From positions 18,138-82,137 of the IMG/VR virus record IMGVR_UViG_645058824_000001: a DNA stretch of 64,000 nt. One strand, written 5' to 3'. Below, in pieces: positions 1,198-64,000 of the stretch. A model generated the notes under the pieces. It made no database searches. It saw only the letters and a list, made by a program, of their open reading frames with translations, and was not told the DNA's origin. Numbering within the stretch: position 1 is the first letter of the stretch; every line of letters starts with the position of its first letter. A program made the translations under genes and the position numbers. Source of the stretch: a virus. Taxonomy: Duplodnaviria > Caudoviricetes.

Positions 1198-1218
1198 TGA
1201 GAGCCTCCTCCCAGCGCC

Positions 1219-2745: not shown

Positions 2746-2820
2746 GATGTCTCCAGACATGCGTGAAGCCCGCGCACGGGCGGGAACTGATGGGGCACGG
2801 CGCGGGCCCAAAACCGGTCG

Positions 2821-3527: not shown

Positions 3528-3539
3528 GACTCCTGCCTC

Positions 3540-6513: not shown

Positions 6514-6569
6514 AAGGACTCCGATCTGCGCCTGGCCGACAGCCGGATGGGCTGCCGGCCAGGCCCGGG

Positions 6570-7517: not shown

Positions 7518-7586
7518 GGGGTCTCCCTTCGAGAATGCAGCGACCCCGGCCCCGTGCGGGTGATTCCGGTGCTGCGGTGAACGTGG

Positions 7587-8174: not shown

Positions 8175-8287
8175 GGTCCCTCCTCGTTCTGAGCATGAGA
8201 AAGGGCCGTGTCCAGCACGGCCCCCGGATCCCGCAGAAGCGGGCGATATTCGGTTAGCTGACGCCACCAGGACGCCAGAGCTTGAGA

Positions 8288-9064
8288 TCAGGGGCGGTCG
8301 GGCGCGGTGTAGGCGGCCCTGCCCTCGGACTCCCACCAGCGGCGGAACGCGTTGACGGCGTGCTTGCCGCCGTGGCCTCGCGTGGTCCGCAGCCAGTCGT
8401 CATAAAGCTGTTCGGCGACGCCGATGAACGGCTCGTCGTGCGTGAACGCAGGCCACGCCTGGCACCCGCAGTGATCGTGGTACCGGTTGCCGCCCTGCCG
8501 TGGATCGCCTGCGGTCTTCGCCGACTTGTACACCGGCCCCCGCGAGGCGAGCATCGCGCACCACGCGCACGGGTCCGCGTCCGTGACCCGCGCCCAGCCG
8601 GCCGCCTGCTCGTCAGCCTCGATCGACCGCTGCATGACCTGCCGGCCACCCTCCAGCGCAAGGTACTGGGTGCTGCCGACCATGCGAACAGCGGCAGCAT
8701 CCATGGCCTGCTGAGGCGTCTTACCCGCGGCAATGGCCTTCTTGAACTCGACCGGCCCCGTCACATCGAGGGCACGTTCCAGACGGTGGACGAACAGCGG
8801 CAACGGATCCTCTGGAGTGAAGTCGCCGTCATCGATACCCGCGTCGCGGCGGGCATCCATGTACGCGGAGCGGGCCAGGACAGCCGACTGCTCCCGAGCC
8901 TCCTGCACCACGGGCTTGAGAGCCGCCTGCACAGCCGGCCACGACGCGTCAACCTTCGCCGGGTTCATCAACTCCCGCCAGATCTGCAGCACCTGCCGGG
9001 CCAGGCGCGCAGCAGCGAGAGCCTGCACACGCCGGTATCGCTGCGGCGCCTCCGGGCCCGCCAT
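8288..9064 (-). CDS. MuF-like minor capsid / head morphogenesis protein
   Basis: WARVTDADPCAWCAMLASRG...YHDHCGC; between portal and scaffold. Confidence 0.75.
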   Translation of the reverse strand: MAGPEAPQRYRRVQALAAARLARQVLQIWRELMNPAKVDASWPAVQAALKPVVQEAREQSAVLARSAYMDARRDAGIDDGDFTPEDPLPLFVHRLERALDVTGPVEFKKAIAAGKTPQQAMDAAAVRMVGSTQYLALEGGRQVMQRSIEADEQAAGWARVTDADPCAWCAMLASRGPVYKSAKTAGDPRQGGNRYHDHCGCQAWPAFTHDEPFIGVAEQLYDDWLRTTRGHGGKHAVNAFRRWWESEGRAAYTAPDRP

Positions 9065-10467: not shown

Positions 10468-10486
10468 GACGCGCCTCCTCCCCCGC

Positions 10487-12136
10487 TCACGCGAATCCGT
10501 GGACGCGTCCAGTGCGCCGCCGCTTCTTCTGCCGCTTCGCCCAGTCCGGCGACGCCAACAAAGCGCGGCGCGCCATGTCCGCCAGCTGCATGCCTGCGAA
10601 GCCGTCCACCTTCTTCGGGGACTCCCGCGACTCCTTGCCGAACGACACACCCCACTTGTTGGGTCGTCGCCGCGCGTTCCCCACGTGTCGTTTCAGCACC
10701 GGATCGCCCGTGTGCAGGATCTTCCGGTCGATGATTGCCTGCACTAGTGCTTCGGTAGCCTTCGTCAGTTCCTGCTGGTGGCCACGCATGTCGTACCCGA
10801 TCAGCGATCGTGCCGACGCCTTCACCAACAGCTCGTCGCGGTACGTCTCGCCCCACTCGTCGATGTACGACTCCCACAGCTTGACGTCCGCGAAGAACGC
10901 CCGGACCTGGAAGCGACCGAAGGCGTGCGCGACCAGATCGGAGACCTGCTTGCGGTCGACTTCCCAGTTCTTGCCCAGCGGTCCTTCGGGTCGCTCCCAG
11001 ATCCCCAGCGGCTGAACCAGCCGGTCCGAGATCCGCATCGCGATCAGTACGGTCGCGTCGTCGGACTTGCCGCCGTCGAAGCCGAGCGTGATCTCGTCCC
11101 CGTCCTGCAGGCGCTCATCCGACAGGCACTTCGCCCACTCCCCCGGGTCAAGAAGCGCATCCTCGGCGGCCACCGGCTGGTTCAGCCAGTACCGGCGCGA
11201 GTCAGAAGGCGACGACTGCGGATCCCAGATCTCGGCGATGATGCCGTCCAGGTCCATCCAGGCCGCCGCCGGCCCGTATGCCTCCTTCAACCCGGCAAGC
11301 AGAGCATCGCGGTCGGCGAGATCAATACCGTCGGTGGCCTGCCGATGGTCGAAGAGGAGGCCTGCCGCGTCCGCATCCCGGATCCGCCCCTCGCGGATGG
11401 CCTTGTAGTAGGTATGAGTTGCCTCGGCGACCGAGTCCTGCCCAGGCTCGTACATCGTCGACGTCTCGAGGCACCACGGTTCGGCTTCCTTGCGCTTACG
11501 CAGGTTCCGCCGCACCGTGCCGTGCATACGCCGCAGCTCCGGCAGCACATACAAGTGGGTCTCGTCGAAGACCGCAAAGGTCTCCTTACCACCGTCCTTC
11601 GCCGCGGACGACGCCGTCGACGGGGTGATCTCACCCCGCTGGTGGTGCAGGATGATCCGGCTCGAGGACTGCGCCGACTTGCCGATGTCGATGCCGGGGA
11701 AGTCGTCGCCATGGTGCTCAATGAGGTACTCGAGCATCGTGGAGACGTTGTCGTAGGTGTTGCCGGACTGGCCCTCTTCCGTGGCCAGGCAGCGAATGAA
11801 CGGCGACTTCACCGGCCTGCCGACCGGCTCCCCGCTGGCGTCCCAGCCGTCGAACCGCACCGGGAACAAAGCCTCCGCGCACACCAGCATCCCGGCGATC
11901 TCCGACTTCGCCCGGCCCTTGGCCCGCGACAGGAACGCCCGCCGGTACACCCGCCGACCCGTCTCCGGATCAAGCCGGTACGCCTTCACGATGAACGCAT
12001 AGAACTCATCGTCCAGTTCGATCGGCTCGCCGACAACGTCGCCAGGACCGTGGCACAGGTACTCCTCGATGTGCTCGACGATCTGATGCCCAAGCGAAGG
12101 GAACTCGCCTTCGTACTGGGGGCCACGCCACGGCAT
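10487..12136 (-). CDS. terL: Terminase large subunit
   Basis: LSRAKGRAKSE (Walker A-like), AVFDETH (Walker B), LGFDGGKSDDAT nuclease, KVDG. Confidence 0.95.
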   Translation of the reverse strand: MPWRGPQYEGEFPSLGHQIVEHIEEYLCHGPGDVVGEPIELDDEFYAFIVKAYRLDPETGRRVYRRAFLSRAKGRAKSEIAGMLVCAEALFPVRFDGWDASGEPVGRPVKSPFIRCLATEEGQSGNTYDNVSTMLEYLIEHHGDDFPGIDIGKSAQSSSRIILHHQRGEITPSTASSAAKDGGKETFAVFDETHLYVLPELRRMHGTVRRNLRKRKEAEPWCLETSTMYEPGQDSVAEATHTYYKAIREGRIRDADAAGLLFDHRQATDGIDLADRDALLAGLKEAYGPAAAWMDLDGIIAEIWDPQSSPSDSRRYWLNQPVAAEDALLDPGEWAKCLSDERLQDGDEITLGFDGGKSDDATVLIAMRISDRLVQPLGIWERPEGPLGKNWEVDRKQVSDLVAHAFGRFQVRAFFADVKLWESYIDEWGETYRDELLVKASARSLIGYDMRGHQQELTKATEALVQAIIDRKILHTGDPVLKRHVGNARRRPNKWGVSFGKESRESPKKVDGFAGMQLADMARRALLASPDWAKRQKKRRRTGRVHGFA

Positions 12137-12144
12137 GACACCCC

Positions 12145-12603
12145 CTACGCACTGTCCTCGCTCACGATCCGCAGGTTCTTCCGTCGATCCGACGTCGACC
12201 GCGGCGTCTCCGCCGGAGCCGGCTTGTCCGCCGGAGTCTCGATCTTCAGCTTCAGTCGCATCCGATCCTCCGGAGTCGCCCCATACTTGGCGGCCCGCAA
12301 CCGCACCTCGGACGCGAACTCCCAGCGCCCCTTGGTCCACATCACGTGGTGCAGCAGCGCCGTGTCGAGCAGGAAGTCCCAGTCGGTCTCGATGAACACC
12401 TGCGCCTGCGCCGACCTGCGCCACGTCTCCCACCACTGCCGGGTCCGCGGATGCCAATCCTCGTCGTCCGGGAGAACACCCTCAGGGAGCAGCGGACCGC
12501 GCAGCTCCCCGTCATCCTCCACCCGGTTCAGCTCCGCATCCCGGGCCTTCGAATCCCGGGCACGCGACCGCGTCGCCTTCGGCGCCATACCGCGACCAGC
12601 CAT
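12145..12603 (-). CDS. terS: Terminase small subunit
   Basis: WHPRTRQWWETWRRS...DWDFLLDTALLH...GATPEDRMRL; directly upstream of terL. Confidence 0.85.
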   Translation of the reverse strand: MAGRGMAPKATRSRARDSKARDAELNRVEDDGELRGPLLPEGVLPDDEDWHPRTRQWWETWRRSAQAQVFIETDWDFLLDTALLHHVMWTKGRWEFASEVRLRAAKYGATPEDRMRLKLKIETPADKPAPAETPRSTSDRRKNLRIVSEDSA

Positions 12604-12616
12604 CAGGGGCACCCCC

Positions 12617-13219
12617 TCACAGCAAGTCAGCGATCACCTGAGACAGATCGGCCAGCGAAGACGGAGCACCCTCGAACGGCTCACCCGTCACAGTGATGTA
12701 GCGGCCACGGTCGTACACCTCGACAGAGGCCTCCCCGCGCCGGATCCGGCGCCCCCGCTCCACCGTTCCGTAGCCCCAGATGTGCAGGCCTGTACCGGAC
12801 GGCGACACCTCGATGTACGTGCGCGGCACCCGGTCAACGATCTCCCGCGCCCAACCCGCCAGCACGCCACCAATGAGAGCGTGATCCAGGTCGATGCACA
12901 CCAGACGGTCCACCGGGCTCAAGACGAAGCCGACACCCACGCCAGCCGTCGACCGCTTCGCCGCGCTGTACGAGCTCCAGGTCTCCGGATCAGTCGACGA
13001 AGCCGCAGACCGCTTCGGGCTGCGGGCCGACAGCGGCACCTTGCGATCGCTGTACCGAACCCACTGAGAGCGCCGCGTCATCGCGGCCGGCACCGGATCC
13101 GACTGCCGCTGCCGAGCTCGGTGAGCAGCCATGCGGCAGCGGCCCGAGCAGAACCGCGCGTTGTGCGCATGCCGCGCACCAAGGTGCTCCCGGCAGTGCT
13201 CGCAGCGCTTCGTCTTCAT
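12617..13219 (-). CDS. Zn-finger + Prim-Pol (AEP) domain protein
   Basis: N-terminal CxxC...FCSGRC; CIDLD, EVSPSGTGLHIW and RYITVTG motifs. Confidence 0.8.
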   Translation of the reverse strand: MKTKRCEHCREHLGARHAHNARFCSGRCRMAAHRARQRQSDPVPAAMTRRSQWVRYSDRKVPLSARSPKRSAASSTDPETWSSYSAAKRSTAGVGVGFVLSPVDRLVCIDLDHALIGGVLAGWAREIVDRVPRTYIEVSPSGTGLHIWGYGTVERGRRIRRGEASVEVYDRGRYITVTGEPFEGAPSSLADLSQVIADLL

Positions 13220-13258
13220 GCACCCAGTCTACGGGCATGTGTGACGGCAATCTGCACT

Positions 13259-13480
13259 CTGACCTGCACTGATACAGGTCCGTGACGTGCGGGGAGCCGC
13301 AGAGGCCGGCAGTGCTCGAACGGCAAACGTGCAGGTCAGAGCATGATCATCAGATCCCCAGAGTCGCGCGCACTCCGGGAAGCTAACGTGCCCGATCCTC
13401 AGATCCGGATGATCTTGGAGGTACCCCCCAGGGTGATCTTGAAGGCATGATCACCCTGAGATCGATCAAGGTCGGCTCGA
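13259..13480. other. Probable cos / packaging-initiation region
   Basis: Non-coding gap between the HNH gene and the terminase block; about ten GATC motifs; 10-bp inverted repeat CAGGGTGATC/GATCACCCTG (13429-13458); 11-bp inverted repeat 13259/13330. Confidence 0.55.
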
Positions 13481-13481
13481 C

Positions 13482-13793
13482 TCAGTTGATCAAGCCGGGG
13501 TGGGCCTCGGCCGGCCGGCGTCGGGGAGGCTTGGCATGTGCCACGGCCGATGCCTCACGACCGGTCTTCTGATCATGGTGCCACTGGCACAGCGCCCACA
13601 GGTTCGCGTCGCTATGATCGTCCACGCCCAGGGCGGCGCCCTGCTTGTGGTCCACCTGATTGGCCGGCTCGCCGCACAGGCCGCCCGCAGCGAGTGGCCA
13701 CTGACAGACGTAGCCGTCCCGCTTGAGGATGCGGCGGCGGATGCGATGCCAGCCCTTCGGCAAGGGTGCTGAGCGCCGGCCTTGGCTGGGCAT
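13482..13793 (-). CDS. Small terminase-associated HNH endonuclease (HK97 gp74-like)
   Basis: RRRILKRDGYVCQW...QVDH...NLWALCQWHHDQKT; next to the putative cos. Confidence 0.85.
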   Translation of the reverse strand: MPSQGRRSAPLPKGWHRIRRRILKRDGYVCQWPLAAGGLCGEPANQVDHKQGAALGVDDHSDANLWALCQWHHDQKTGREASAVAHAKPPRRRPAEAHPGLIN

Positions 13794-14043
13794 CAGTCCT
13801 TGTCCTTGCCGCCGTGGGCGTTGGGTCCGGGGCGTTCTCCGGTGGCCCGCTTGTGCAGGTTGGAGCACAGGCCATCGAGCATCCGGCCCGGCTTCACGTA
13901 CTTCCCGAGCTGGACCCGGCAGCGGTCGAAGTCCCCCGGGGAACCCCAAGCTATCTTGACCCTAAAGCGGCCCCCGGACCGTGCGCCCAGTACTCCATGA
14001 GGCGCTCGGTCGAGACGGGGGCCTTGCCAGTCTTGTCGACCAT
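13793..14043 (-). CDS. Small conserved phage protein interrupted by an 8-nt out-of-frame segment that starts with TTA (recoded gene or pseudogene)
   Basis: Frame 1 MVDKTGKAPVSTERLMEYWAHGPGAA then TTA GGG TCA AGA TAG; frame 2 KIAWGSPGDFDRCRVQLGKYV...GLCSNLHKRATG to a TGA overlapping the HNH start; GGAGG RBS. Confidence 0.65.
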
Positions 14044-14056
14044 GGGGATCACCTCC

Positions 14057-14932
14057 TCATCTCTTGATGGCGCGCAGGCGCTCGTACAGGTCTCGGTCCT
14101 TCTGCGTAGCCCTGTTGCACTTGCTGGTGTTGCAGATCAGATGGGCTAAGGCGAGGTTCGCCCATACGTGCCCGGGATACTCCGGGTCGCTGATCGGGAT
14201 GATGTGGTCCAGGCTCGCCATCATGGGGTGGTGACCGTTCAGTTCCCGGTCGACGGGCAGGCTGCATATGTGGCAGATCCATCCGTCACGCTCGAAGACG
14301 TCTCGTAGACGGACCGGCTCCGCTGGCGCTTGAGCCGCACGGTTTCGACGGAGGTGCTTCCCGATGAGCCGTCGGCACCGCTCCGAGCAGTAGATCGCGG
14401 CGCGATGGGTGTCTCGGGGAATGCCTCGTGCGCACACTTCGCACTGCCGCTCTACATCAACGTACTCAGGATGACGGCGGTGGTAGATGCGACAGCGCAC
14501 CGAGCATGTGATCATCCGTGTATCAGCGGCGCTGAACGCCGAAGCGCATACAACGCAGATGGCTGTCCATGGCTGTCCTAGCTGTCGCGCTCGCGCGGCG
14601 AGACCGCTGCACCGAAGCGTGCAGTACTTCTCTCGCCCGGTCTTAGCGGAGAACGCCGCACCGCACTGGGGGCAGAGTGCAGGACGGGCCCGATTGGCTT
14701 GGTGCTGCTTCTCCTGGGCTTCGTAGCACTCTCGGCAGTAGCGGGCGTTGCCGTGCCGGTCGGAGATGTCTGTTCCGCAGCCGAGGCACTCTCGTGTAGT
14801 CGGCACGGCGGTGCCTGCCCTGCGGGCCTTGCGAAGCCGGGTACTGCACTTGGGGGAGCACGTAACGGCGTCTGATCGAACGCTGGTGAACGAACTGCCG
14901 CAGGCAGCGCACGCTCGCGTATGGTTGGTCAT
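14057..14932 (-). CDS. Free-standing HNH endonuclease with multiple CxxC...CS zinc-finger repeats
   Basis: About five CxxC/CSxxC units, then VFERDGWICHIC...SLDHIIP...NLALAHLICN. Confidence 0.85.
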   Translation of the reverse strand: MTNHTRACAACGSSFTSVRSDAVTCSPKCSTRLRKARRAGTAVPTTRECLGCGTDISDRHGNARYCRECYEAQEKQHQANRARPALCPQCGAAFSAKTGREKYCTLRCSGLAARARQLGQPWTAICVVCASAFSAADTRMITCSVRCRIYHRRHPEYVDVERQCEVCARGIPRDTHRAAIYCSERCRRLIGKHLRRNRAAQAPAEPVRLRDVFERDGWICHICSLPVDRELNGHHPMMASLDHIIPISDPEYPGHVWANLALAHLICNTSKCNRATQKDRDLYERLRAIKR

Positions 14933-19242: not shown

Positions 19243-20042
19243 CACGCCCCCTGGAAGTCGACCTGGATCGTGACCGCTGTCGGCGCCCCGGTGACGGAGC
19301 GGATCGCGACGGTGAGGCTGTCTCCCGCGGCGAAGCTGGCGTTCTGCACGGACGGCCCCGACAGCCACGTCGACGCGGTGGAGAGGCTCAGGTTCGTGGC
19401 GAGGAGATCGGACGCGTTCCGTTGCGCGTTGATCGTCGCCCCGGTACCGCCAACCCGATACCCGCGCACCCCGACCACCGTGCAGGCTTTCGGAGCCCGC
19501 CACACGACGTAGGAGACCGCACCCGCCGGCGCGGTGATGACCAGGCTCTTGCTCAGCGTCGTCGCTGCGGCCGGCAGGGTCAGGCTCGGAGCCGTCACCC
19601 CACCATCGGCCGCGACCGCGAATGTACCGGGCCCGTTGATCGGCCCGGTGACCGTGCCGCCTGCCTTCGGGAAGAACTTCCCGTCCGCGTAGGCACGGTC
19701 TCCGTGCGGGTCCGTGGCCTGCGCGTGAGCGGTGACCTTCGCGGTGGCGTCGGCTTCAGCGGCGGCCCGATCACCGTGCGGGTCCGACGCGACGACGTGC
19801 GCCTGCAGCGCCTCCTCGGCATGTGCCCGATCCCCGTGCGGATCCTGCGCGGCGACATGCTCGTCGACCACGGCCTGGGCTGCGGCCTGGACTCCGTCGA
19901 TCGTCGCCAGGCCGGACACGTCGCCGGTCTTCCCGTTCACGGAGGACACGAGGCCGGCGGACACGTGCACCGTCCGGGCCTGCTGCCCTGTCGTCACCTC
20001 GATCTCGTCGGTGAGCGCCTCACCCGTGACTTGGAGCCTCAC
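19242..20042 (-). CDS. Tail fibre-like protein with three HxxxxDPHGDRA repeats
   Basis: VSSVNGKTGDV motif; three DPHGDRA repeats. Confidence 0.7.
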   Translation of the reverse strand: MRLQVTGEALTDEIEVTTGQQARTVHVSAGLVSSVNGKTGDVSGLATIDGVQAAAQAVVDEHVAAQDPHGDRAHAEEALQAHVVASDPHGDRAAAEADATAKVTAHAQATDPHGDRAYADGKFFPKAGGTVTGPINGPGTFAVAADGGVTAPSLTLPAAATTLSKSLVITAPAGAVSYVVWRAPKACTVVGVRGYRVGGTGATINAQRNASDLLATNLSLSTASTWLSGPSVQNASFAAGDSLTVAIRSVTGAPTAVTIQVDFQGA

Positions 20043-27745: not shown

Positions 27746-28198
27746 TCACTTCCGGTTGATGGTCTTGGCCCACACGCTGCGGTTCTCGGTGTTGCGCTGG
27801 TCCTGGTAGACGGGGCCCGCGTAGTGGTGGTGGTGCTCCTCGGGCAGTGCCGCCTTGGCCTTCCCCGCGAGCCGGGCGAGGGCGAGGACCAGGGCGGTCG
27901 GCGCGCCGAACACGATGGCGCAGACGACGGGGTTGGCGAACTGGGAGTAGTACATGACGACGGCCGCAGTACCGCCGACCATCGCGGTGCTGGCTCCCCC
28001 GGCCAGCATGAGCACGCTGGCGTCGGTCGCACCCTGGCTCATCGGCGGCCGGCCGGGCTGCGGAACGGGCGGAGCGGATCCGACAACGGGAATCGGGCTG
28101 TCGTCTCTGAAGCTGGTGGGCTGGTAGGCGGCGTGGATGAGGCGGGCGGCTTCCTTCTCGGCAACCTCCTCGCTCATCGGCATGGCAGGCTCGGTCAT
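27746..28198 (-). CDS. Two-TM membrane protein (Spd-like)
   Basis: Two hydrophobic helices; downstream of traB. Confidence 0.6.
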   Translation of the reverse strand: MTEPAMPMSEEVAEKEAARLIHAAYQPTSFRDDSPIPVVGSAPPVPQPGRPPMSQGATDASVLMLAGGASTAMVGGTAAVVMYYSQFANPVVCAIVFGAPTALVLALARLAGKAKAALPEEHHHHYAGPVYQDQRNTENRSVWAKTINRK

Positions 28199-28207
28199 GC
28201 GGGTCTC

Positions 28208-28825
28208 CTAGTCGATTTCGCCGGTGCCGGAGCACACGGAGCAGCGGACGGTCGTGGTGTCGTGCAGGCGGGACTCGATGACGTGGGCGCCCTCGCCGCG
28301 GCAGGCCGGGCACGGGTTGATCGGCTCGGGGGTGTAGTCGGGGTCGGGTTCGTAGCCGCCGGTTTGTGCGGTCCAGGCGGCCTCGAGCGCCCCGGCCTTC
28401 GCGGCGGCGACACCGCGGCGCGCGGCCTGCTTGACCGGCTGGGTGACGGCGCGAACGGCCCGCCGCCGCTGCCTCCGCAGCGCCGGCTTGACCAGGCGCC
28501 GCCAGTAGACGCGGACCGCGGCCTTCACGTCCTCCGGCGTCACCTCCGGGTACAGCTCCCCGGCGAGGACCGCACCACCGATGGTGATCTCGAACAAGTC
28601 GGCATCCTCCGGCCGTTGACGGCCCGTCGACGCCTCCTTGATCCGCTTCAGGTCGCCGACGGTGATGAGCGGGTCTTCCCAGCTGTGGGACTGCCAGCAG
28701 TTGCCGTGTACCGGCATGGCGTCGATGAAGCTGCCGCCGTCGAGGGTGAACGCCTCCGACAGGCACTCGGGGCAGACGTAGGGAGCGCCGTCGATCGTCA
28801 TCTGCTGGATTTTCAGGGTGAGCAT
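28208..28825 (-). CDS. Zn-finger protein (CxxC; CxxCxGxG repeats)
   Basis: CPEC, CPACRGEG, CSVCSGTG. Confidence 0.65.
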   Translation of the reverse strand: MLTLKIQQMTIDGAPYVCPECLSEAFTLDGGSFIDAMPVHGNCWQSHSWEDPLITVGDLKRIKEASTGRQRPEDADLFEITIGGAVLAGELYPEVTPEDVKAAVRVYWRRLVKPALRRQRRRAVRAVTQPVKQAARRGVAAAKAGALEAAWTAQTGGYEPDPDYTPEPINPCPACRGEGAHVIESRLHDTTTVRCSVCSGTGEID

Positions 28826-28859
28826 TCGAACCTCCTCTCTCTGATCGTTCAGGGGCACG

Positions 28860-29034
28860 GACCCTGCCCGGACCCTGTCTTCGGCTGTCGTTTGTGCAGG
28901 TCAGACCCTGCGCGGACCCTGCCCGGCATGACGTCGGCGGTGGCGGACCCTGCCCCGCCCAGGCAGGGTCGGGGCAGGGTCGTCAGCGCCGTGACCTGCA
29001 TGTCTTCCAACGGGGGCAGGGTCGGGGCAGGGTG
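28860..29034. repeat. clt-like locus: nine GACCCTG(C) 8-mers (TraB recognition sequence-like)
   Basis: GACCCTGC/T at 28860, 28871, 28904, 28915, 28946; inverted copies at 28963, 28974, 29016, 29027; pairs 11 bp apart; right after the traB stop. Confidence 0.7.
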
Positions 29035-29045
29035 TAAACCTGGAT

Positions 29046-31142
29046 CTATCGGGCGGCGGTGAGATCGGCGAGCCGGAACCCGCGAGCTTCCTTACCCTCC
29101 GCCGTCGCGACCTTCACCGCCTTGATGTCGAGGCCCTCAGCCGCCATCGAAGCGGCCAGGAGCTTCCCCACCCGCGCGCTGTACTGCGCATCGGTCTCAT
29201 CGACCCGGTAGCCGTACCGCTCGTCGACCGTCGCGAGGTACGCGAACACCTCGGCCCGCGTCGCCTCTCCCCTGCCGGTGGCCTCGGCGGCGTCGATCAG
29301 GTGGTCCAGCAGGGTCAGGACGGCCGGAGTCGACCCGATGCGCCCCTTGCCGCTCTCGCCGCCGGCCGCCGAGGAAACGCCGGTCTCGGCGAGCAGGTAC
29401 TCCTCGATCGGGTCCTTCCACTGGCCGGGGAGCCGACCGGCGGCCTTGCGGATCTCGTAGGCCTCTTCTGCCGCCCGCCGCTTGTCGTCGGGCTTGACCA
29501 GGTAAGAGCGGACCTGGATGACGCCGGTCTCCGGGGTAGACAGCCAGGCCCGGCCCGGCTGGGTCAGCGGGATCTTCGAGGCGTCGTGGCCCTGACCGGT
29601 CATGCCGTCGCCAAGAATGGTGTTCGAGGCAGTGCCCGACTCGGTGTTCATGGCGGCGCGGGAGGTGTGGTTCTGGCGGAGCCGGCCGCGGACGACGTCG
29701 ACCTCGGGCACCTGGGTGAGGCTGATCAGGGTGATGCCGAGGGCGGCGCCGACGGCGGCGATCTGCGACAGGTTCTCGGTGATCTCGTCGGCGTAGGGGC
29801 TGGTGCCCTTCGGGGTGTAGGTGGCCAGCTCGTCGACGATGAAGACCTCACGGCCGCCGAGCAGCTGCATGCACTCCTCGTAGTTCTCGTCGTCGATCTT
29901 CTCGTAGCCGTGCTCGTCGAGCAGGTCGGAGCGGCGGTCCATCTCGGCGACGATCGCACGGGTGGCAAGGGCCAGCCGCTGGGCGTTGCGCTTGGTGAAC
30001 GTGCCCATGATCCGCGCATAGGCGTTGTGCTCGGCGGTGCCCTTGCCGTCGAAGATCCGCACGTTGACCCACGGGTCCTTCGCCACGCCGATCAGGATGT
30101 TCGCCAGCAGCATGCCCTTACCGCGGCGGGTGGCGCCGCCCACGATGAGGCTGCTGTCCCGGATCCACAGGGTGATGGGCTCGCCGCGCTTACCGAACGC
30201 GACCTTGATGCCATCGCGGAAGGTGTTGATCGGCCCTTCGTGGTCGAGGAGCGGGGAGCGCCGCACGATGGCGAAGGGGTCGCTGCTGGCCACCCATACC
30301 TTCAGCCGGGACTCAATGTCGCCGACTTCCAGGTCGAGCCAGTCCTGGTGGACGGCGAGCGCGGACGCGATCTGCTGCTTCCTGGCCACCGCGACTGCGG
30401 CGGGAATCCCGGACGGCAGGTCGACTTCGTAGGCGATGCCTGGGCCTTCGGTGTGGGGGATGCCGACGCCGCGGATCTCGGCGGCCCGCTTCTCGGGGAC
30501 GGCTCCGGCTTCGACGAGGACCCGGCGCATGGTGTCTTCGCCAAGGTGGCTGGTGCGGGTCGGCGCCTGGATCGGGACGACCGCGGGTTCCTCGGGCCGG
30601 CCGAACCATGCGCCGGTGAAGACGAACGCGAGGGCGAGGAGGATCTGCACCCACAGTCCGCCGACCGCGGCGGCGATCGTGCCGCCGCCGACGATGATCA
30701 GACCGCTGATGCCGGTGCGGATCCAGTGCCGCTTCTTGTGCGCCTTGAACTCGGCGCGGCGGACCTGGAGCACGGCACGGGCTCGCGCCTCGTCGGCCGG
30801 CTTGCCCTTGGCGGCCCGGAGCATCTGCTTGGCGGACGCGATCTCCTGCCGGTAGTCGTCGTGCCGGGCTTCCCACCAGCGGAGGCAGAGGCGGCGGTAG
30901 CCGCGCACGGACCAGCCGAGGTAGTACGGCGTGTGCGTGACCTGGTACACGGTCCAGTCGATCGCGTTGTCGCGGGCGTACACGACCCACTGCCGCAGCT
31001 GCTCGCCGGAGAGCATCCAGCCGGGGCGGGGGCGCTTCTCGAACTCGTAGACGCGGGCCGGCTCGGGGTCCTTGGTGAGCGTGGCGGTGATCTGCTCCCA
31101 CTCCGGATCCGGGGTGCTGCTGGGGGTCGTCTCGATGCTCAC
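29046..31142 (-). CDS. traB: FtsK/SpoIIIE-family conjugative DNA translocase (TraB-like)
   Basis: N-terminal TM helices; GGATRRGKG Walker A; FIVDELA Walker B; GAALGITLISLTQVP; C-terminal wHTH-like tail ending RGFRLADL. Confidence 0.85.
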   Translation of the reverse strand: MSIETTPSSTPDPEWEQITATLTKDPEPARVYEFEKRPRPGWMLSGEQLRQWVVYARDNAIDWTVYQVTHTPYYLGWSVRGYRRLCLRWWEARHDDYRQEIASAKQMLRAAKGKPADEARARAVLQVRRAEFKAHKKRHWIRTGISGLIIVGGGTIAAAVGGLWVQILLALAFVFTGAWFGRPEEPAVVPIQAPTRTSHLGEDTMRRVLVEAGAVPEKRAAEIRGVGIPHTEGPGIAYEVDLPSGIPAAVAVARKQQIASALAVHQDWLDLEVGDIESRLKVWVASSDPFAIVRRSPLLDHEGPINTFRDGIKVAFGKRGEPITLWIRDSSLIVGGATRRGKGMLLANILIGVAKDPWVNVRIFDGKGTAEHNAYARIMGTFTKRNAQRLALATRAIVAEMDRRSDLLDEHGYEKIDDENYEECMQLLGGREVFIVDELATYTPKGTSPYADEITENLSQIAAVGAALGITLISLTQVPEVDVVRGRLRQNHTSRAAMNTESGTASNTILGDGMTGQGHDASKIPLTQPGRAWLSTPETGVIQVRSYLVKPDDKRRAAEEAYEIRKAAGRLPGQWKDPIEEYLLAETGVSSAAGGESGKGRIGSTPAVLTLLDHLIDAAEATGRGEATRAEVFAYLATVDERYGYRVDETDAQYSARVGKLLAASMAAEGLDIKAVKVATAEGKEARGFRLADLTAAR

Positions 31143-59818: not shown

Positions 59819-60594
59819 GACGCCTCCTTCGGCGCAGGGTTGGTCTGGTTGGCGGCGGCCTTCGGTGTGGCGCCGTCGGCGAGCAGGTAGAGCAGGTTCA
59901 CCGCGTCGTCGTCGTGGCCTGCCACCTCCATTGCCTGGGCCGTCTCGTGCAGCACCTTGGCGTCGTGCTGGGCGAGGGCGTCGGCGGCGAAGTCCGGCCC
60001 GGTCTCGGTCCAGACCGTGGCCTGCGTCAGCAGGTGGAGGGCGCCGAGCGCGGCGGTGCCGGGGTCTTCGAGGTCGTAGCAGAGGGAGCCGAGAGCGACG
60101 CGGGCTTCGACGGCCGCCTTCTCCAGCTCGGTGATGCGGGCCTTCGCGGTGGCGAGTTCGGCGGTGGCCTGCTCGTACTCGGCGTCGTCGAGGGACTGCT
60201 GGTGGCGCAGGTGCTGGATCTCCGCCAGCAGGGCGGGGACGTCCTCGCCCGCGAGTTGGTCGGCCTCGGGCGGCAGGGGCACGTACTCGTAGAGGTGGGC
60301 GGCGCGGGCGTCGATCTCTGCGAGCCGCTGCTCGTCGAGCGGGGGCTGGTCACCGCCCGGCACCGGCAGGGCACCCAGGACGGCCACAGCGTCGTCGGTC
60401 GTCTTCGCGGTGCCCGGGATGACGTGCCCGGCCCGCGTCGCATACGCGACCTGCTCCGGCGTCGGCTGTACGCCGTGCACGTCAGCCCGGTGCGCGGCCA
60501 GATGCCAGTCACGGGCCTCCACGAACTCGTCGGGGATACCGTGCGCCGACCACCGGCAGGAGGGGTCGGGGCAGTAGATCGGGGAGATCTTCAC
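59815..60594 (-). CDS. Hypothetical protein (Zn motif, coiled coil)
   Basis: CPDPSC...H. Confidence 0.6.
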   Translation of the reverse strand: MKISPIYCPDPSCRWSAHGIPDEFVEARDWHLAAHRADVHGVQPTPEQVAYATRAGHVIPGTAKTTDDAVAVLGALPVPGGDQPPLDEQRLAEIDARAAHLYEYVPLPPEADQLAGEDVPALLAEIQHLRHQQSLDDAEYEQATAELATAKARITELEKAAVEARVALGSLCYDLEDPGTAALGALHLLTQATVWTETGPDFAADALAQHDAKVLHETAQAMEVAGHDDDAVNLLYLLADGATPKAAANQTNPAPKEAS

Positions 60595-60830
60595 GACGCC
60601 TCCCCGAGGGTGACGCCGAAGCGGCGGGCGAACTCGACGAACGGCAGGTGGTCCTCGGGGCGAGGAGCGAGCACGCCGGCCTCGATCAGGCTTGCGACGT
60701 GGATGACGTCGATCTCGACGTGCGGGATACCGGCGCCGTCCGTGTAGCTGATCGTGTTGATGCCGAGCTCGGCGCACAGGTGCTTGATGAAAGCGGTGGT
60801 CTCATCCGGCTTGGGGGTCAGGTCGCTCAT
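60591..60830 (-). CDS. Hypothetical protein
   Basis: ATGA-coupled to the RAMP-like gene. Confidence 0.65.
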   Translation of the reverse strand: MSDLTPKPDETTAFIKHLCAELGINTISYTDGAGIPHVEIDVIHVASLIEAGVLAPRPEDHLPFVEFARRFGVTLGEAS

Positions 60831-61498
60831 GCGCCGGCCTCCCACTTGATGACCTCGTAGCGACCGAAGCCCTGCGAGCGGGATGCGCCGACGCCCTGCT
60901 GCTCACCGGTGAGCCAGAGCATGGCCCACTCTTCGTCGGTGAACGCGTAGTCGGAGATGATCGTGAAGTCGAACTCGGCGACCTCGATGAACTCCGTGTA
61001 CTGGATGCCGGTCTGGCCGGTACGCGGGTTCTTCGGGAAGGACTGGAGGACGCCGGTCGGTTCGGCGACGCCGAGGGGGAGCTTGTCCTCGACGACCATG
61101 ATGTGTTCGGCGACGAAGCCCTGGACGCCCTTGTTGGTGGAACCCCAGCGGGCCTTGAGCTTGTCGACGGAGCGGGCGACGGAGGCGGCTTCCTTGATGG
61201 CGGCCTTGAGCTGACGGCCCTCGATGTAGAGGCCGTGCTCGTCGCGCTTGAAGCCGTTGAGGTGCTTGTTCTGGTCGACGAGCTTGGCGGCTTCGTCGGC
61301 GGTGACGCCGCGGTCGACCATGGTCTGGGCGACGGCTTCGCGGATGAGGTCGTCCTTGTCGGCGAGCTTGGTGCGGAGCCATCCTTCGGCGACCTTGGGG
61401 TCGGTGGGGACACCGCCGGCGAGGTTGCGGACGCGGATGGTTCCGTGGAAGCGGTGGGGCCATGCCTTGTTGGTGTAGTTGGCGAAGATGCTGGTCAT
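60827..61498 (-). CDS. Stand-alone Cas7/RAMP-like protein (223 aa)
   Basis: N-terminal strand with GG (FHGTIRVRNLAGG), YIEGRQLKAAIKEAA helix, C-terminal G-loop GVGASRSQGFGRYEV; AAAGGA RBS; no cas genes or CRISPR nearby. Confidence 0.75.
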   Translation of the reverse strand: MTSIFANYTNKAWPHRFHGTIRVRNLAGGVPTDPKVAEGWLRTKLADKDDLIREAVAQTMVDRGVTADEAAKLVDQNKHLNGFKRDEHGLYIEGRQLKAAIKEAASVARSVDKLKARWGSTNKGVQGFVAEHIMVVEDKLPLGVAEPTGVLQSFPKNPRTGQTGIQYTEFIEVAEFDFTIISDYAFTDEEWAMLWLTGEQQGVGASRSQGFGRYEVIKWEAGA

Positions 61499-61519
61499 GT
61501 GGTGAGTTCCTTTCAGTGA

Positions 61520-62140
61520 CCTGGGTGGTCGGTTGGGACGGGCGGGTACGAGGAGAGCGGCGTGGGACAGAGATGGGTCGTCGTTACGGCTTGGGGCCGT
61601 GTCGGTCGGTGTTGGGTAGTCGGCGCGGTCAGGGTTGGGAGGCGTCGGGACGGGTTGTCGTTCAGGCATGGGCGGGGCGGCAATGGCCGGGGAAGTCGAC
61701 TAGGAAGGGTCAGAGACGAGGCGAGTCGGGTAGTCGCGGGGGTTGAAGCGAGGAGCCATGAAGTGGGAAGTCGGTGGGGGTCGGTTGGAGGGGTGACGGC
61801 TAGTCGGTCAGTGCGGGATCGGATCGGGATGGGTAGAACCGTCGATCAGGTTCGGGCCGCTACGGCTCGACTTGGCGGGTCGTGTGAATCGGTGCGAGTT
61901 GAACTGCGGTGACATGTCGATGGGGCAGGGAAGCGTCGAACCGGTGGGAGATGAAAAGTCGGCTAGGACTCGGGCCGTACAGGGCTGTGCGGTAGGGAGT
62001 CGGGTGGTCGGCGTGATGCGCGGTGGGCCGAGGCGGCTTGAAAAGTCGACGAGGGCCGGGGCGGGCGGAGAAGGCGCGATCGCGGCTAGAATGGTCGGCT
62101 GCTTTGCGGCGAGAAGTTCGGTGTGGGGCGCGGTGTGTCG
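61520..62140 (-). repeat. Non-coding pentamer-periodic array: ~15 units of 33-52 nt (mostly 37-39), each CGAC-NN-(nnC-NN)x6-9; candidate guide-RNA array
   Basis: On the minus strand a C recurs every 5 nt; triplets are mostly CCC/GCC/CTC/TTC/ACC; CGAC marks unit starts at 62140, 62097, 62048, 62002, 61961, 61919, 61882, 61844, 61806, 61773, 61736, 61698, 61660, 61622, 61583. Confidence 0.85.
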
Positions 62141-62154
62141 GCCGGTGCTCTTCG

Positions 62155-62718
62155 TCATGCCGCTGCTCGCGGAACCGCTCGCGGACCCTGCTGGGTCACC
62201 GACCGGTACATCTCCAAGTACTGCTCCTCGGTGAACACCTCACCGACCACCCGGCCGCCGATCTTCTTCGCGACCGCCCGATGGAACGCCGCCTCCAACT
62301 TCGAGATCCGCGCCGCGTCCTCGTACTTCGCGGCCACGAACCGGCAGTCATCGGCGGTCATGTTCGCCACCGCCCGCCGCGTGTTCGCCTCATCGACCAC
62401 GTACTCGGCAGCGAACGGGCTCAACACCCTTACGTCGCCGTCCGTCGTGAAGCTACGTGCCGCCTCGGCGAACGCGCGCCGCGGGGCACCGACACGAGCC
62501 GTCTGCCGCTTGCTGTTCGACCGTCGGGCCACGACGTCCGCCAGGATTACGGGCGCCTTCAAGTGCAGCCAGCCGGCAAGCAACTCCGGGTCCTCGACTC
62601 GCAGGCGGTCGACGAGGTCGGCGGCAACCACCGACGCCACGTAGTCGCCCTCGGGTATCGCGGCCTCCACTGCCTGCTGCATCTCGGCGATGAAGTCGCG
62701 ATCTGTCACACTGGTCAC
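62155..62718 (-). CDS. Hypothetical helical protein directly upstream of the array
   Basis: GTG after AAAGGAAAGG; 187 aa. Confidence 0.75.
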   Translation of the reverse strand: MTSVTDRDFIAEMQQAVEAAIPEGDYVASVVAADLVDRLRVEDPELLAGWLHLKAPVILADVVARRSNSKRQTARVGAPRRAFAEAARSFTTDGDVRVLSPFAAEYVVDEANTRRAVANMTADDCRFVAAKYEDAARISKLEAAFHRAVAKKIGGRVVGEVFTEEQYLEMYRSVTQQGPRAVPRAAA

Positions 62719-62799
62719 GCGGCCTTTCCTTTCTTGTGGTGAGTTCAGGAGGGTCGTTCCGGCCGGTCGCCTCTGGTGGCCGGCCTTCTGCATGCCGGC

Positions 62800-63129
62800 T
62801 CAGGCGGCGATGGGCTGGAGCTGCTTCCCCGCGGGCTGCGGGCTCTCCGCGGCCGGCGCGGAAGCGCGGGCCCGGCGGGGACGCCCTCGCCGAGCGGAGG
62901 CATTGCGGTGCATCGCGGCGATGTCCGCGAGGTCGGAGTCGCTGAACACCAGCCGGCCGCTCATGCGGTGGTGGGGGAAGCCCTTGTGGTTGACGCCGTC
63001 GCGGAGCCAGCGGATACCGCTCTCGTCGTCGGGGTCGGTGGGGTCGTTCAGGCCGAGCTTCTCGGCGGCCTGCTTGACGTTGTAGAAGCCCTCAAGCTGC
63101 TTGGTGGGGGTGGGCTTTCGGGTGGACAT
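62800..63129 (-). CDS. Excisionase-like HTH protein
   Basis: FYNVKQAAEKLG...WLRDG...RLVFSDSDL. Confidence 0.7.
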   Translation of the reverse strand: MSTRKPTPTKQLEGFYNVKQAAEKLGLNDPTDPDDESGIRWLRDGVNHKGFPHHRMSGRLVFSDSDLADIAAMHRNASARRGRPRRARASAPAAESPQPAGKQLQPIAA

Positions 63130-63130: not shown

Positions 63131-63388
63131 TCACCTCTTTCCTAGGGGGTTGTCCTGCGGGGATGGGCGCAGTAGTTGCGTGGAGTCGGCCGGCAGGCCG
63201 AGTGCTGTGCGGAGCCGCTGGTAGGGACCGGGTCTCATGCGGGTGCGGTATCCGTTTTCGAGGTGGTTGAGGTAGCGCCTGGATATGAGTGCTGCCTTGG
63301 CCAGCTCTGCGGTGCTCAGCCCTGCCTGCATGCGGAGCTTGCGGATTTCCGCCCCTATCACCTCGTAGGTGGGAGGGGGTTGTTCCAT
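63131..63388 (-). CDS. Cro-like Xre HTH regulator
   Basis: IRKLRMQAGLSTAELAKAALISRRYLNHLENG. Confidence 0.85.
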   Translation of the reverse strand: MEQPPPTYEVIGAEIRKLRMQAGLSTAELAKAALISRRYLNHLENGYRTRMRPGPYQRLRTALGLPADSTQLLRPSPQDNPLGKR

Positions 63389-63569: not shown

Positions 63570-63586
63570 CTGGCAGGATGTGTCTC

Positions 63587-64000
63587 ATGGGTAACGACCT
63601 CGGACGCCTAGCGACGCTCGTAAAGGAGCGGCGCCTCGAGCTCGGGCTGGGCGTAGAGCCCGCCGCCAAGCTCACCGGCATGAGCAAGGACACGTGGAAA
63701 AAGGTCGAGGCAGCCCAGACAGTCCGGGCCACCTCGTACACCAACATCGAACGTGCCCTCCAGTGGGCGCCCGGCAGCTGCCGGCGCATCCTCGCCGGAG
63801 GCGACCCCGTTGCCACAGAGGCACTCTCCTCCGCTCCCAGCAAGTCGCTCGCCCTCATCCCCAGAGACGAACTGGAGCGTCAGGTCGGCGACGCCATCAA
63901 CCGCGCCGCCCTGGGCGTGAAGAGCGACCTGACGGCAGAACAGATCCTCGAGCTGAACGAGCGCGTGCTGGACGAGCTACGCAAACGAGGCGTGCTCTAA
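63587..64000 (+). CDS. CI-like immunity repressor (Xre HTH)
   Basis: LVKERRLELGLGVEPAAKLTGMSKDTWKKVE; divergent from cro; alternative start 63578. Confidence 0.85.
   Translation: MGNDLGRLATLVKERRLELGLGVEPAAKLTGMSKDTWKKVEAAQTVRATSYTNIERALQWAPGSCRRILAGGDPVATEALSSAPSKSLALIPRDELERQVGDAINRAALGVKSDLTAEQILELNERVLDELRKRGVL

What the first reader, a model, noticed from the sequence alone, without database searches (positions are those of the whole stretch)
60827..62140. Candidate RNA-guided system: orphan Cas7/RAMP gene fed by a 5-nt-periodic, ~38-nt-unit non-coding array
Seen in sequence: the ~650 bp between gene 62155..62718 and the RAMP-like gene is a highly ordered array, not a gene. Minus-strand units read, for example, CGAC AA CCC GT CCC GA CGC CT CCC AA CCC TG ACC GC; CGAC GG TTC TA CCC AT CCC GA TCC GA TCC CG CAC TG; CGAC CC GCC AA GTC GA GCC GT AGC GG CCC GA ACC TG. 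A C-ending triplet alternates with a free dinucleotide, with usually 7 dinucleotides per unit and ~15 units, each starting with CGAC. It is not CRISPR: there is no identical repeat, and the constant and variable parts are interleaved at 5-nt pitch. Established: Cas7/RAMP subunits polymerise along RNA with a fixed nucleotide footprint. Inference: each unit is a guide; one protomer clamps each constant triplet and displays the NN pair, giving a non-contiguous recognition code, probably used against rival phages or for gene silencing since no nuclease is linked. From memory (please verify), phage RAMP + GGY/NN repeat RNA systems called VIPR have been reported. This array uses a different (nnC) triplet and a CGAC boundary, so it may be a new variant.
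Basis: partly seen in the sequence, partly recalled or inferred. Interest (0 to 1): 0.96.

Follow-up and report, generated by a model that had tools for sequence, protein, structure and literature searches.

The report
Streptomyces phage VIPR guide-RNA system
This phage carries a divergent member of the recently described VIPR family: a small Cas7-like protein and an array of about 13 short guides built from 5-base steps, three of which match genes of a rival mobile element in Streptomyces.

Summary
VIPR was described in three 2026 preprints.

- **Protein.** Gene 60827..61498(-) models confidently as a minimal Cas7-like RAMP. It is a remote but significant homologue of the SUSP1 Vipr family (hhalign 94.8%, E 5e-8).
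- **Array.** The roughly 620 nt upstream (61526..62145) holds about 13 units. On the gene strand each reads CGAC + (N N n H C)x6-9. The C is 87-100% conserved and the NN pair carries about 0 bits. Unit length is mostly 5n+3 (33/38/43 nt).
- **Conservation.** The layout accessory gene - array - vipr recurs across about 85 related phage and prophage loci.
- **Targets.** Read with the published 1-nt-skip rule (NNxNNx), guide g12 matches 18/18, g8b 14/14 and g5 13/14 within 800 bp of one Streptomyces integrative element. Skips of 0, 2 or 3 give nothing, and 0 of 3000 shuffles give an exact hit. The phage does not match itself.
- **Open point.** The transcribed strand is not shown. I favour (about 75%) the C-rich strand, sense to vipr. 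That would make this GGY/NN with the two G lost and only the position-3 pyrimidine kept.

Class: new member of a known kind, in a non-canonical clade.

The parts
62155..62718 (-). Conserved accessory gene (vap-like), 187 aa, all-alpha, function unknown
   Evidence: A homologue lies next to vipr on the same strand in 44 of 86 loci: 42 upstream and 2 downstream. The AF2 model has pLDDT 85 and is helical. It has no PDB fold match and only weak BFVD matches to unnamed mycobacteriophage proteins. No Pfam or PHROG hit.
61526..62145 (-). vrRNA-type guide array: about 13 clean units of CGAC + (N N n H C)x6-9, plus 2-3 degenerate units at the 5' end
   Evidence: Autocorrelation, position-specific counts, unit parse. 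There are no identical repeats and no Rfam family.
61535..61580 (-). Guide g12 (GA AT TG CA CG TC GT CG GT)
   Evidence: Exact 18/18 match as NNx to L093 13005-13030(-). The match covers codons DICHRSVRV of a DUF6907 gene, with every skip base on the wobble position.
61698..61733 (-). Guide g8b (TA GA GC GT TG CT TA)
   Evidence: Exact 14/14 match to L093 12255(-), codons YDAVWLY of a 329-aa membrane protein. The same site is exact in 7 further Streptomyces genomes, with different wobble bases.
61844..61879 (-). Guide g5 (CC AA GA GT GG GA TG)
   Evidence: 13/14 match to L093 12580(-), over the ribosome-binding site and ATG of a small gene lying between the other two targets.
61499..61525 (-). 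Short leader with the vipr ribosome-binding site (GAAAGGA). No room for a promoter.
   Evidence: The sequence shows the last periodic C lies 37 nt before the ATG.
60827..61498 (-). vipr homologue, 223 aa: single RRM core, helical insert, thumb-like hairpin region, C-terminal G-loop GVGASRSQGFGRY
   Evidence: AF2 pLDDT 88, pTM 0.83. Foldseek top hits are type VII Cas7 and Csm3, E 7e-8. VIA Z 10.1 to Csm3, rmsd 4.1 A, 153 residues aligned. hhalign to the SUSP1 Vipr family gives 94.8%, E 5e-8.

Best explanation
This is a VIPR (Viral Interference Programmable Repeat) system of a divergent, mainly actinophage clade.

**Mechanism (by homology with SUSP1 VIPR).** The early leftward operon of the phage encodes an accessory protein, a guide array and the Vipr RAMP. 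The array is transcribed and cut or delimited at the CGAC punctuation into guides of about 33-43 nt. Vipr protomers polymerise along each guide, one per 5-nt step. Each protomer holds the constant triplet and presents the two variable bases. The 6-9 dinucleotides pair with double-stranded DNA that carries the same dinucleotides separated by one skipped base. In genes this means codon positions 1-2 are read and the wobble base is ignored. Binding silences transcription of the target.

**Target found here.** It is the transfer/spread-type module of a rival Streptomyces integrative element. That element carries an integrase, a TerL-like gene, an FtsK/TraB-like gene and DUF6907 genes.

**Which strand is the RNA.** I think the RNA is the C-rich strand, sense to vipr (about 75%). 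The motif n-H-C/NN would then be the canonical G-G-Y/NN frame in which the two G-reading contacts are lost and only the pyrimidine at position 3 is kept.

**Shown here:** fold, homology, array anatomy, synteny, target matches under the 1-nt skip.

**Inferred:** transcription, processing at CGAC, filament formation, silencing, RNA strand.
For: **Protein**
- Confident RAMP model.
- All top structural matches are CRISPR Cas7/Csm3/Cmr4-type subunits.
- Profile-profile match to the SUSP1 Vipr family over 128 columns including the G-loop: 94.8%, E 5e-8.
- Large family of unnamed proteins: 1601 hits and 608 clusters at 50% identity.
- Found on 79 IMG/VR viral contigs.

**Array**
- 5-nt and 38-nt periodicity.
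- Invariant C with information-free NN pairs.
- The same architecture occurs in loci with Vipr identity down to 28% and G+C from 46 to 72%.

**Code**
- With one skipped base, g12 (18/18), g8b (14/14) and g5 (13/14) fall within 800 bp on one strand of L093.
- The eight other guides of at least 7 dinucleotides were tested. Skips of 0, 2 and 3 give no hit of 0 or 1 mismatch.
- None of 3000 dinucleotide-order shuffles of those guides gives an exact hit; the mean number of 1-mismatch hits is 0.009.
- The g8b site is exact in 7 more of 401 Streptomyces genomes while its skip bases vary.
- A guide of locus L015 matches 16/16 the KVAEGWLK codons of vipr in 7 other loci, but has 2 mismatches to its own vipr.
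- No guide of at least 7 dinucleotides matches the phage's own 82-kb genome with 0 or 1 mismatch.

**Strand**
- The main array is C-sense to vipr in 66 of 70 non-redundant loci.
- 42 of 55 upstream C-sense arrays end within 103 nt of the vipr ATG (median about 37 nt), so the vipr leader must contain sense array RNA. G-sense upstream arrays keep gaps of 89 nt or more.
- The accessory gene, array and vipr are co-directional.
- In SUSP1 and in a Streptomyces type II locus the repeats are sense to vipr.
- In the alignment, SUSP1 R179, which holds Y3, corresponds to the invariant R207 here. D177 and W178, which read G1 and G2, correspond to A205 and S206 (residue roles from 10.64898/2026.04.26.720927).
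Against: - No RNA data exist for any member of this clade. Transcription, processing and strand are all unproven.
- Every repeat variant named in the founding VIPR preprint (YNNGG, NNNGG, YNNNG, NNNNG) is written with G. The complementary strand here reads G-r-n/NN, which could be their 'NNNGG/NNNNG' class transcribed antisense to vipr.
- A few loci carry arrays in the opposite orientation (L036, L039, L043, L058), so arrays can have their own promoters.
- In the L071/L069 clade a strong hairpin stands between the vipr stop and the array. It could end an antisense transcript.
- Only 3 of about 13 guides have an identified target.
- The g2 hit in L092 and the many g10 hits look like chance.
- The N-terminal third of the protein did not align to SUSP1 Vipr, so the equivalent of H17 is unknown.
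- The accessory protein has no recognisable DNA-binding fold.
Confidence: 0.88

Rival explanations
1. Same VIPR system, but the guides are the G-rich strand (5'-G r n N N-3' repeats ending in GTCG). They would be transcribed antisense to vipr from their own promoter. That would make this the 'NNNGG/NNNNG' or 'staggered' class already listed in the founding preprint.
For: - Experimentally confirmed vrRNAs are G-type, and G1 is the best-read base in SUSP1.
- On the G strand the conservation gradient G1 > position 2 > position 3 resembles the canonical one.
- A constant 3' end GGGWAGTCG would mimic a 3' tail.
- Some loci have arrays in either orientation.
- A hairpin after the vipr stop in L071/L069 scores as a minus-strand terminator, and a promoter-like site lies beyond the array.
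- Target matches cannot tell the strands apart, because the target is double-stranded DNA.
Against: - In most loci there is no room for an antisense promoter. The array abuts the vipr ribosome-binding site, or in L071 the next gene's ribosome-binding site.
- The promoter-like hit in L071 lies inside a coding region, and such hits are no more frequent than in shuffles.
- Position 3 on the G strand would be 71% purine, although the Arg that holds the pyrimidine is invariant, while the Asp and Trp that read the G bases are absent.
- The G-rich strand folds twice as strongly as the C-rich strand: -197 against -103 kcal/mol for 521 nt.
Confidence: 0.22
2. The array is not a set of RNA guides. It would instead be a DNA element (iteron, centromere or bent-DNA tract) or a proline-rich coding region, and the RAMP-like protein would act elsewhere.
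For: An ORF of 116 aa can be drawn through part of it (61808..62158). No RNA evidence is available.
Against: - A 5-nt period with two information-free positions is incompatible with coding.
- The NN strings match rival-element genes in codon register only at skip 1.
- The protein is homologous to an RNA-binding guide carrier.
- Arrays differ completely in NN content between close relatives.
Confidence: 0.03
3. A degenerate remnant of a type III/VII CRISPR-Cas locus (orphan Cas7) next to a decayed CRISPR array.
For: The closest solved structures are Cas7 of type VII and Csm3. The G-loop resembles that of Csm4 (E 0.3).
Against: - There are no direct repeats.
- No cas genes were seen among the Pfam or PHROG hits or the ORFs of the flanking genes.
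- The protein is a single RRM of minimal size.
- The module is conserved intact in about 85 viral loci.
- Sequence homology is to Vipr, not to any Cas family in Pfam.
Confidence: 0.01

Closest known systems
Type II VIPR of Escherichia phage SUSP1 (Vipr + vrRNA; bioRxiv 10.64898/2026.04.26.720920 and 10.64898/2026.04.26.720927)
   Same: - Phage-borne minimal RAMP with a G-loop.
- A two-gene module with an accessory gene.
- Non-coding RNA built of 5-nt steps: three constrained bases plus two free bases.
- Targets follow the 1-nt skip rule in codon register.
- Targets are rival mobile elements and other vipr genes.
- No self-targeting.
   Different: - Protein identity is only about 24% over the C-terminal two thirds.
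- The constant triplet is n-H-C (one invariant C), not GGY.
- The Asp and Trp that read the two G bases are Ala and Ser here.
- Guides have 6-9 steps, against 9-16.
- Guides are packed head to tail with CGAC punctuation and a phase slip, mostly 3 nt.
- There is no 3' pseudoknot tail.
- The array usually sits between the accessory gene and vipr.
Non-canonical VIPR-like arrays found by the Evo-PIN language model (GAC/NN, CAC/NN, WGT/NN, TGH/NN; bioRxiv 10.64898/2026.10.21.760802)
   Same: Period-5 arrays beside Vipr-like folds whose fixed triplet is not GGY. The GAC/CAC triplets look like those of the cyanophage-like branch of this protein family (L071).
   Different: That report gives motifs and folds only. 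As far as the held text shows, it gives no targets, no unit punctuation, no strand evidence and no mention of actinophages. I could not check whether this clade is one of its 21 clusters.
'Staggered' vrRNA arrays with 1-nt overlaps (fig. S18 of 10.64898/2026.04.26.720920)
   Same: Guides abut each other without spacers or ribozymes, and the end of one marks the start of the next. This fits the shared C at each CGAC.
   Different: Only the legend is readable here. Identity with the CGAC / 5n+3 layout could not be verified.
Cas7 backbone subunits of class 1 CRISPR effectors (Csm3, Cmr4, type VII Cas7)
   Same: The same fold, and polymerisation along a guide with periodic base flipping (established knowledge; structural matches).
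   Different: There is no CRISPR repeat-spacer array and there are no other cas genes. The footprint is 5 nt with only 2 pairing bases, not 6 nt with 5 pairing bases.

Membership tests
VIPR | Vipr protein: minimal single-RRM RAMP with G-loop and thumb, homologous to described Vipr | tested here: met
   AF2 model with pLDDT 88. RAMP matches at Foldseek E 7e-8 and VIA Z 10.1. hhalign to the SUSP1 Vipr family gives 94.8%, E 5e-8 over 128 columns.
VIPR | Adjacent non-coding tract of tandem 5-nt units, three constrained and two hypervariable positions | tested here: met
   The NN positions carry about 0 bits, and C at position 3 is 87-100% conserved.
VIPR | Constant triplet is GGY (canonical definition) | tested here: not met
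   The gene strand reads n-H-C and the complement reads G-r-n with 71% purine at position 3. Both preprints allow 'related' or non-canonical motifs, so this excludes the canonical type only.
VIPR | Targets specified by NN dinucleotides with one skipped base | tested here: met
   Three window guides converge on L093 only at skip 1, and 0 of 3000 shuffles give an exact hit. The L015 guide matches other vipr genes. This is computational evidence only.
VIPR | Encoded by a virus or provirus, outside any CRISPR-cas locus, with a small accessory gene | tested here: met
   G000 is an 82-kb virus record. There are 79 viral loci. The accessory gene is syntenic in 44 loci. No CRISPR-like repeats.
VIPR | vrRNA is expressed, co-purifies with Vipr and silences matching DNA | not testable with these tools
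   Needs small-RNA sequencing, pull-down and reporter assays.
VIPR | Structured invariable 3' tail on each vrRNA (type II feature) | tested here: not met
   Units are separated only by CGAC. There is no conserved hairpin within the array and no Rfam ribozyme.
CRISPR-Cas class 1 (Cas7) | Repeat-spacer array with identical direct repeats and further cas genes | tested here: not met
   (no such repeats). (neighbouring genes have no cas family hits).

The most novel reading that the evidence does not exclude
The guides are the C-rich sense strand and are held in register by a single pyrimidine per 5-nt step, the GG-reading contacts of canonical Vipr having been lost. The CGAC sites, where the 5-nt phase slips (mostly by 3 nt), act as built-in punctuation. 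They would measure out guides of 6-9 protomers without a 3' tail, ribozyme or Cas6-like repeat, possibly by breaking the filament or through cleavage by Vipr itself. This would be the most minimal known RNA-guided DNA-recognition module and would define how little constant sequence a RAMP filament needs.
Probability: 0.45. Interest if true: 0.6.

Novelty: new member of a known kind. Interest (0 to 1): 0.45.

Why it matters
It extends the newly described VIPR systems to temperate Streptomyces phages and gives a concrete natural conflict to study: a phage that itself carries a conjugation module aims its guides at the transfer genes of a rival integrative element.

It also gives an independent computational confirmation of the 1-nt-skip code, in a clade about 24% identical to the characterised protein.

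The residue-to-motif correspondence is a testable rule for how Vipr proteins read their constant triplet: Asp/Trp lost together with GG, Arg kept together with the pyrimidine. That rule would be useful for engineering orthogonal guides.

Culturable carriers exist. These are Streptomyces sp. NPDC088794, Streptacidiphilus carbonis NBRC 100919, Nocardiopsis tropica JCM 10877 and Microcystis phage Mae-JY09.

Tried and rejected
- **Family and RNA libraries.** Pfam and PHROGs gave nothing for vipr, the accessory gene or the neighbouring genes. Rfam gave nothing in 60500..63000.
- **Fourier scan.** A period-5 scan in 200-nt windows was too weak, because the phase slips at every unit. I replaced it with lag-5 and run-based detectors.
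- **All-against-all guide search.** 962 guides against 0.6 Mb of fetched loci showed no overall excess over shuffles. Only long exact hits were informative.
- **Single-guide hits.**
  - The 18/18 hit of g2 in L092 puts the skip base on codon position 1 of the real gene, so I treated it as chance.
Recurrent hits fell in a KVDLNWA motif that, from memory, resembles GH25-type endolysin C-termini (no domain search run); they cannot be told from chance.
  - The 13/14 hit of g6 lies in glutamine synthetase and is probably chance.
- **Promoter and terminator scans** did not exceed shuffles and did not settle the strand.
- **Accessory protein.** Fold searches of its model found no known fold.
- **Other checks.** A period-5 C run at window about 19381..19431 is ordinary coding sequence. 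The 79-aa gene after vipr is conserved only in the closest relatives.
Full report
**1. What is in the sequence**

All genes in this part of the window run on the minus strand. Gene 62155..62718 (187 aa) is followed by about 650 nt without a credible ORF, and then by gene 60827..61498 (223 aa).

The gap is 47% C and 19% G on the gene strand. Its base-identity autocorrelation peaks at lags 5, 10 and 38 (z 4.2, 3.5, 4.1 against shuffles).

I split the gap and the equivalent regions of 13 close relatives at CGAC and stacked 55 units. This gives a sharp profile:
- C at +3 (the last base of CGAC), +8, +13 ... +33 in 87-100% of units.
- The two bases after each C carry 0.0-0.1 bit. That is uniform A/C/G/T in a 69% G+C genome.
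- The two bases before each C are C- or T-biased.
- The next CGAC lies at +33, +38 or +43, so a unit is 5n+3 nt. At most boundaries the 5-nt phase slips by 3.

The window has about 13 clean units with 6-9 dinucleotides each (61535..62045) and a few degenerate ones towards 62145. Ordinary repeat finders and Rfam see nothing.

**2. The protein**

Pfam and PHROGs are silent. The protein nevertheless belongs to a large family of unnamed proteins: 1601 hits, and 608 clusters at 50% identity. Hosts include Streptomyces, Streptacidiphilus, Actinomadura and Nocardiopsis, and there are many viral contigs.

An AlphaFold model built on 44 sequences is confident (pLDDT 88, pTM 0.83). Its best structural matches are without exception CRISPR RAMP backbone subunits:
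- Foldseek: type VII Cas7, Csm3 and Cas7-11, E down to 7e-8.
- VIA-align: Z 10.1 to Csm3 9g9a_D, rmsd 4.1 A, 153 residues aligned. The top 27 rows are all CRISPR proteins.

The C-terminal GVGASRSQGFGRY is a classical G-loop.

**3. VIPR exists and this is a relative**

- bioRxiv 10.64898/2026.04.26.720920 describes phage-borne Vipr RAMPs with vrRNAs made of GGY/NN pentamers. These recognise DNA as NN-x-NN-x (the '1-nt skip rule') and silence rival mobile elements. It lists seven types, and variant repeats NNNGG, YNNNG and NNNNG, 'staggered' arrays and ribozyme-separated arrays.
- The companion paper 10.64898/2026.04.26.720927 gives the contacts. G1 is read by H17 and D177. G2 is read by R138 and W178. 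Y3 sits in a pocket with R179.

I located the SUSP1 locus in KT454805: genes 28031..28471 and 28474..29061, minus strand, with YNNGG tracts on the same strand. I built a type II Vipr alignment and compared profiles: 94.8% probability, E 5e-8, 128 columns including the G-loop. A single-sequence comparison gave E 3e-4. The window protein is thus a remote Vipr homologue.

**4. The module is conserved**

I examined seven genomic and 79 IMG/VR loci, with Vipr identity from 93% down to 28% and G+C from 46 to 72%.
- The strongest lag-5 signal lies next to the gene in most loci.
- Among 70 non-redundant loci with a clear array, 66 have it with the periodic C on the vipr sense strand.
- By clusters, there are 55 upstream and 29 downstream C-sense arrays against 9 G-sense ones, and some of the latter are false positives inside genes.
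- Position 2 of the triplet varies by clade: C/T in actinophages, T in L051, A in the cyanophage-like L071 group. It is always G-poor, and only the C is invariant. CGAC punctuation is kept throughout.
- The 187-aa upstream gene has homologues beside vipr, always co-directional, in 44 of 86 loci. The usual order is accessory gene - array - vipr. Its model is a helical protein without a known fold.
- A cultured phage, Microcystis phage Mae-JY09, has the gene followed by a C-sense array and a 12-bp hairpin at the genome end.

**5. Do the dinucleotides mean anything?**

I read each unit on the gene strand as a string of NN pairs and searched with 0-3 skipped bases.

*Across the fetched loci.* The only long exact hits were at skip 1. 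The last unit of L015 (TT AG CA CC TC GC AC TT) matches 16/16 the antisense of the KVAEGWLK codons of vipr in seven other loci, with the skip bases differing among them. L015's own vipr has two mismatches, both in the first pair. [quoted passage not shown]

*For the window.* I scanned IMG/VR with the two 9-pair guides.
- g2 gave one hit that looks like chance, because the skip base falls on codon position 1.
- g12 gave one hit, 18/18. It lies in a 14.7-kb, 70% G+C provirus record (L093), in frame with codons DICHRSVRV of a DUF6907 gene.

I then tested the other window guides on L093.
- g8b matches 14/14, on YDAVWLY of a 329-aa membrane protein.
- g5 matches 13/14, across the ribosome-binding site and ATG of the gene in between.
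- All three sites lie on one strand within 800 bp.

Conditioning on g12, I tested the eight other guides of at least 7 pairs. They give no hit of 0 or 1 mismatch at skip 0, 2 or 3. In 3000 shuffles of dinucleotide order there was no exact hit and a mean of 0.009 one-mismatch hits.

L093 carries a tyrosine integrase, an HTH regulator, a TerL-like gene, an FtsK/TraB-like gene and two DUF6907 genes. It is an integrative, satellite- or AICE-like element.
- Homologous segments occur in 18 of 401 Streptomyces genomes sampled.
- The g8b site is exact in 7 of them while its wobble bases vary.
- No guide of at least 7 pairs matches the phage's own 82-kb genome with 0 or 1 mismatch.
- Other guides remain without a convincing target.

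**6. Which strand is the RNA?**

Target matches cannot decide this, because the target is duplex DNA. Five arguments favour the C-rich sense strand.

1. The orientation bias: 66 of 70 loci.
2. Upstream C-sense arrays run to within a median of about 37 nt of the vipr ATG. 42 of 55 end within 103 nt, and in the window the distance is 37 nt. The vipr mRNA must therefore start in or before the array and contain it in sense. The few G-sense upstream arrays keep 89 nt or more.
3. The array is sandwiched between co-directional partner genes. In L071 it abuts the next gene's ribosome-binding site. This leaves no intergenic room for an antisense promoter.
4. In SUSP1 and in a canonical type II locus from Streptomyces, the repeats are sense to vipr.
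5. In the profile alignment, the Arg that holds the position-3 pyrimidine in SUSP1 (R179) is the invariant R207 here. The Asp and Trp that read G1 and G2 are Ala205 and Ser206. Read on the sense strand, the motif n-H-C/NN is exactly GGY/NN with the GG specificity gone and the pyrimidine kept. Read on the other strand, position 3 would be 71% purine.

The sense RNA is also weakly structured: -103 kcal/mol against -197 kcal/mol for the complement over 521 nt.

Four points count against the sense strand.
- Experimentally confirmed vrRNAs are G-type.
- Some loci carry inverted arrays.
- A hairpin between the vipr stop and the array in one clade could end an antisense transcript.
- Promoter and terminator scans are uninformative.

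I put the sense strand at about 75%.

**7. Comparison and novelty**

By fold, homology, locus type, 5-nt repeat logic and targeting rule, this is a VIPR system. It fails only the canonical GGY and 3'-tail criteria, which the preprints themselves relax.

An October 2026 preprint (10.64898/2026.10.21.760802) already reports 21 period-5 clusters beside Vipr-like folds with non-canonical triplets, including GAC/NN and CAC/NN. The founding paper mentions staggered arrays whose vrRNAs overlap by one nucleotide. I could not see the figures or tables, so I cannot say whether this clade already has a type number. None of the three texts mentions Streptomyces or actinobacteria.

As far as I can tell, what is added here is:
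- the CGAC / 5n+3 anatomy;
- the single-C anchor and its match to the lost Asp/Trp;
- the conserved helical accessory gene;
- a concrete natural target.

I class it as a new member of a known kind, belonging to a non-canonical clade. It is interesting mainly as a tractable case and as a test of how the constant triplet is read.

**8. Context from earlier notes of this scan**

One note on the same stretch had guessed that the dinucleotides are codon positions 1-2 of target genes. The L093 and vipr matches confirm this.

Other notes describe this phage as carrying a TraB/Spd-like conjugation module. I did not test that. If it holds, it makes a fight with an FtsK/TraB-bearing integrative element plausible.

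Noticed in passing
window 63131..63388(-) and 63578..64000(+): Divergent HTH genes (Cro/CI-like pair), followed leftward by a Xis/MerR-like gene at 62800..63129(-). The VIPR module is therefore the first cargo of the leftward early operon.
   Followed up: no
window 60591..60830(-): A 79-aa gene whose ATG overlaps the vipr stop (ATGA). It is conserved only in the closest relatives (L001, L008/L009), so it is not a family-wide accessory gene.
   Followed up: yes
L093 (IMGVR_UViG_2724678988_000002) 1..14667: A small integrative element that combines a tyrosine integrase, an HTH regulator, a TerL-like gene (35-55% identical in segments to the phage's own terminase region), an FtsK/TraB-like gene and two DUF6907 genes. 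It looks like a satellite/AICE hybrid.
   Followed up: partly
L015 2924..2966 against vipr genes of L006, L007, L020, L021, L022, L027, L064: One phage's guide matches 16/16 a conserved motif of other phages' vipr genes, but mismatches its own copy in the first dinucleotide. This looks like VIPR-against-VIPR conflict with self-avoidance.
   Followed up: partly
L036, L039, L043 (upstream) and L058 (downstream): Arrays in the opposite orientation to vipr. L036 and L039 carry one array in each orientation flanking vipr and the accessory gene.
   Followed up: partly
L071 3845..3870 and L069 3208..3250: A strong G+C hairpin between the vipr stop and the downstream array in the low-G+C (cyanophage-like) clade. 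Its role is unknown: terminator, attenuator or processing site.
   Followed up: no
L241 (Microcystis phage Mae-JY09, PP395641) 2965..4160: A cultured cyanophage has a vipr homologue (34% identity) with a C-sense CCGAC-punctuated array and a terminal 12-bp hairpin at the right genome end. The record annotates all of it as hypothetical or leaves it unannotated.
   Followed up: partly
L195, L226, L232, L233 (IMG/VR, 67-69% G+C): Window guide g10 (AA GT GA CT AA TG GC) matches exactly the KVDLNWA codons at the C-terminus of ORFs of about 310-335 aa. From memory the motif resembles GH25-type endolysins; no domain search was run. This cannot be separated from chance with the scans available.
   Followed up: partly
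L002 about 3450..3650: A run of N (withheld sequence) sits inside the array of the Streptacidiphilus carbonis locus.
   Followed up: no
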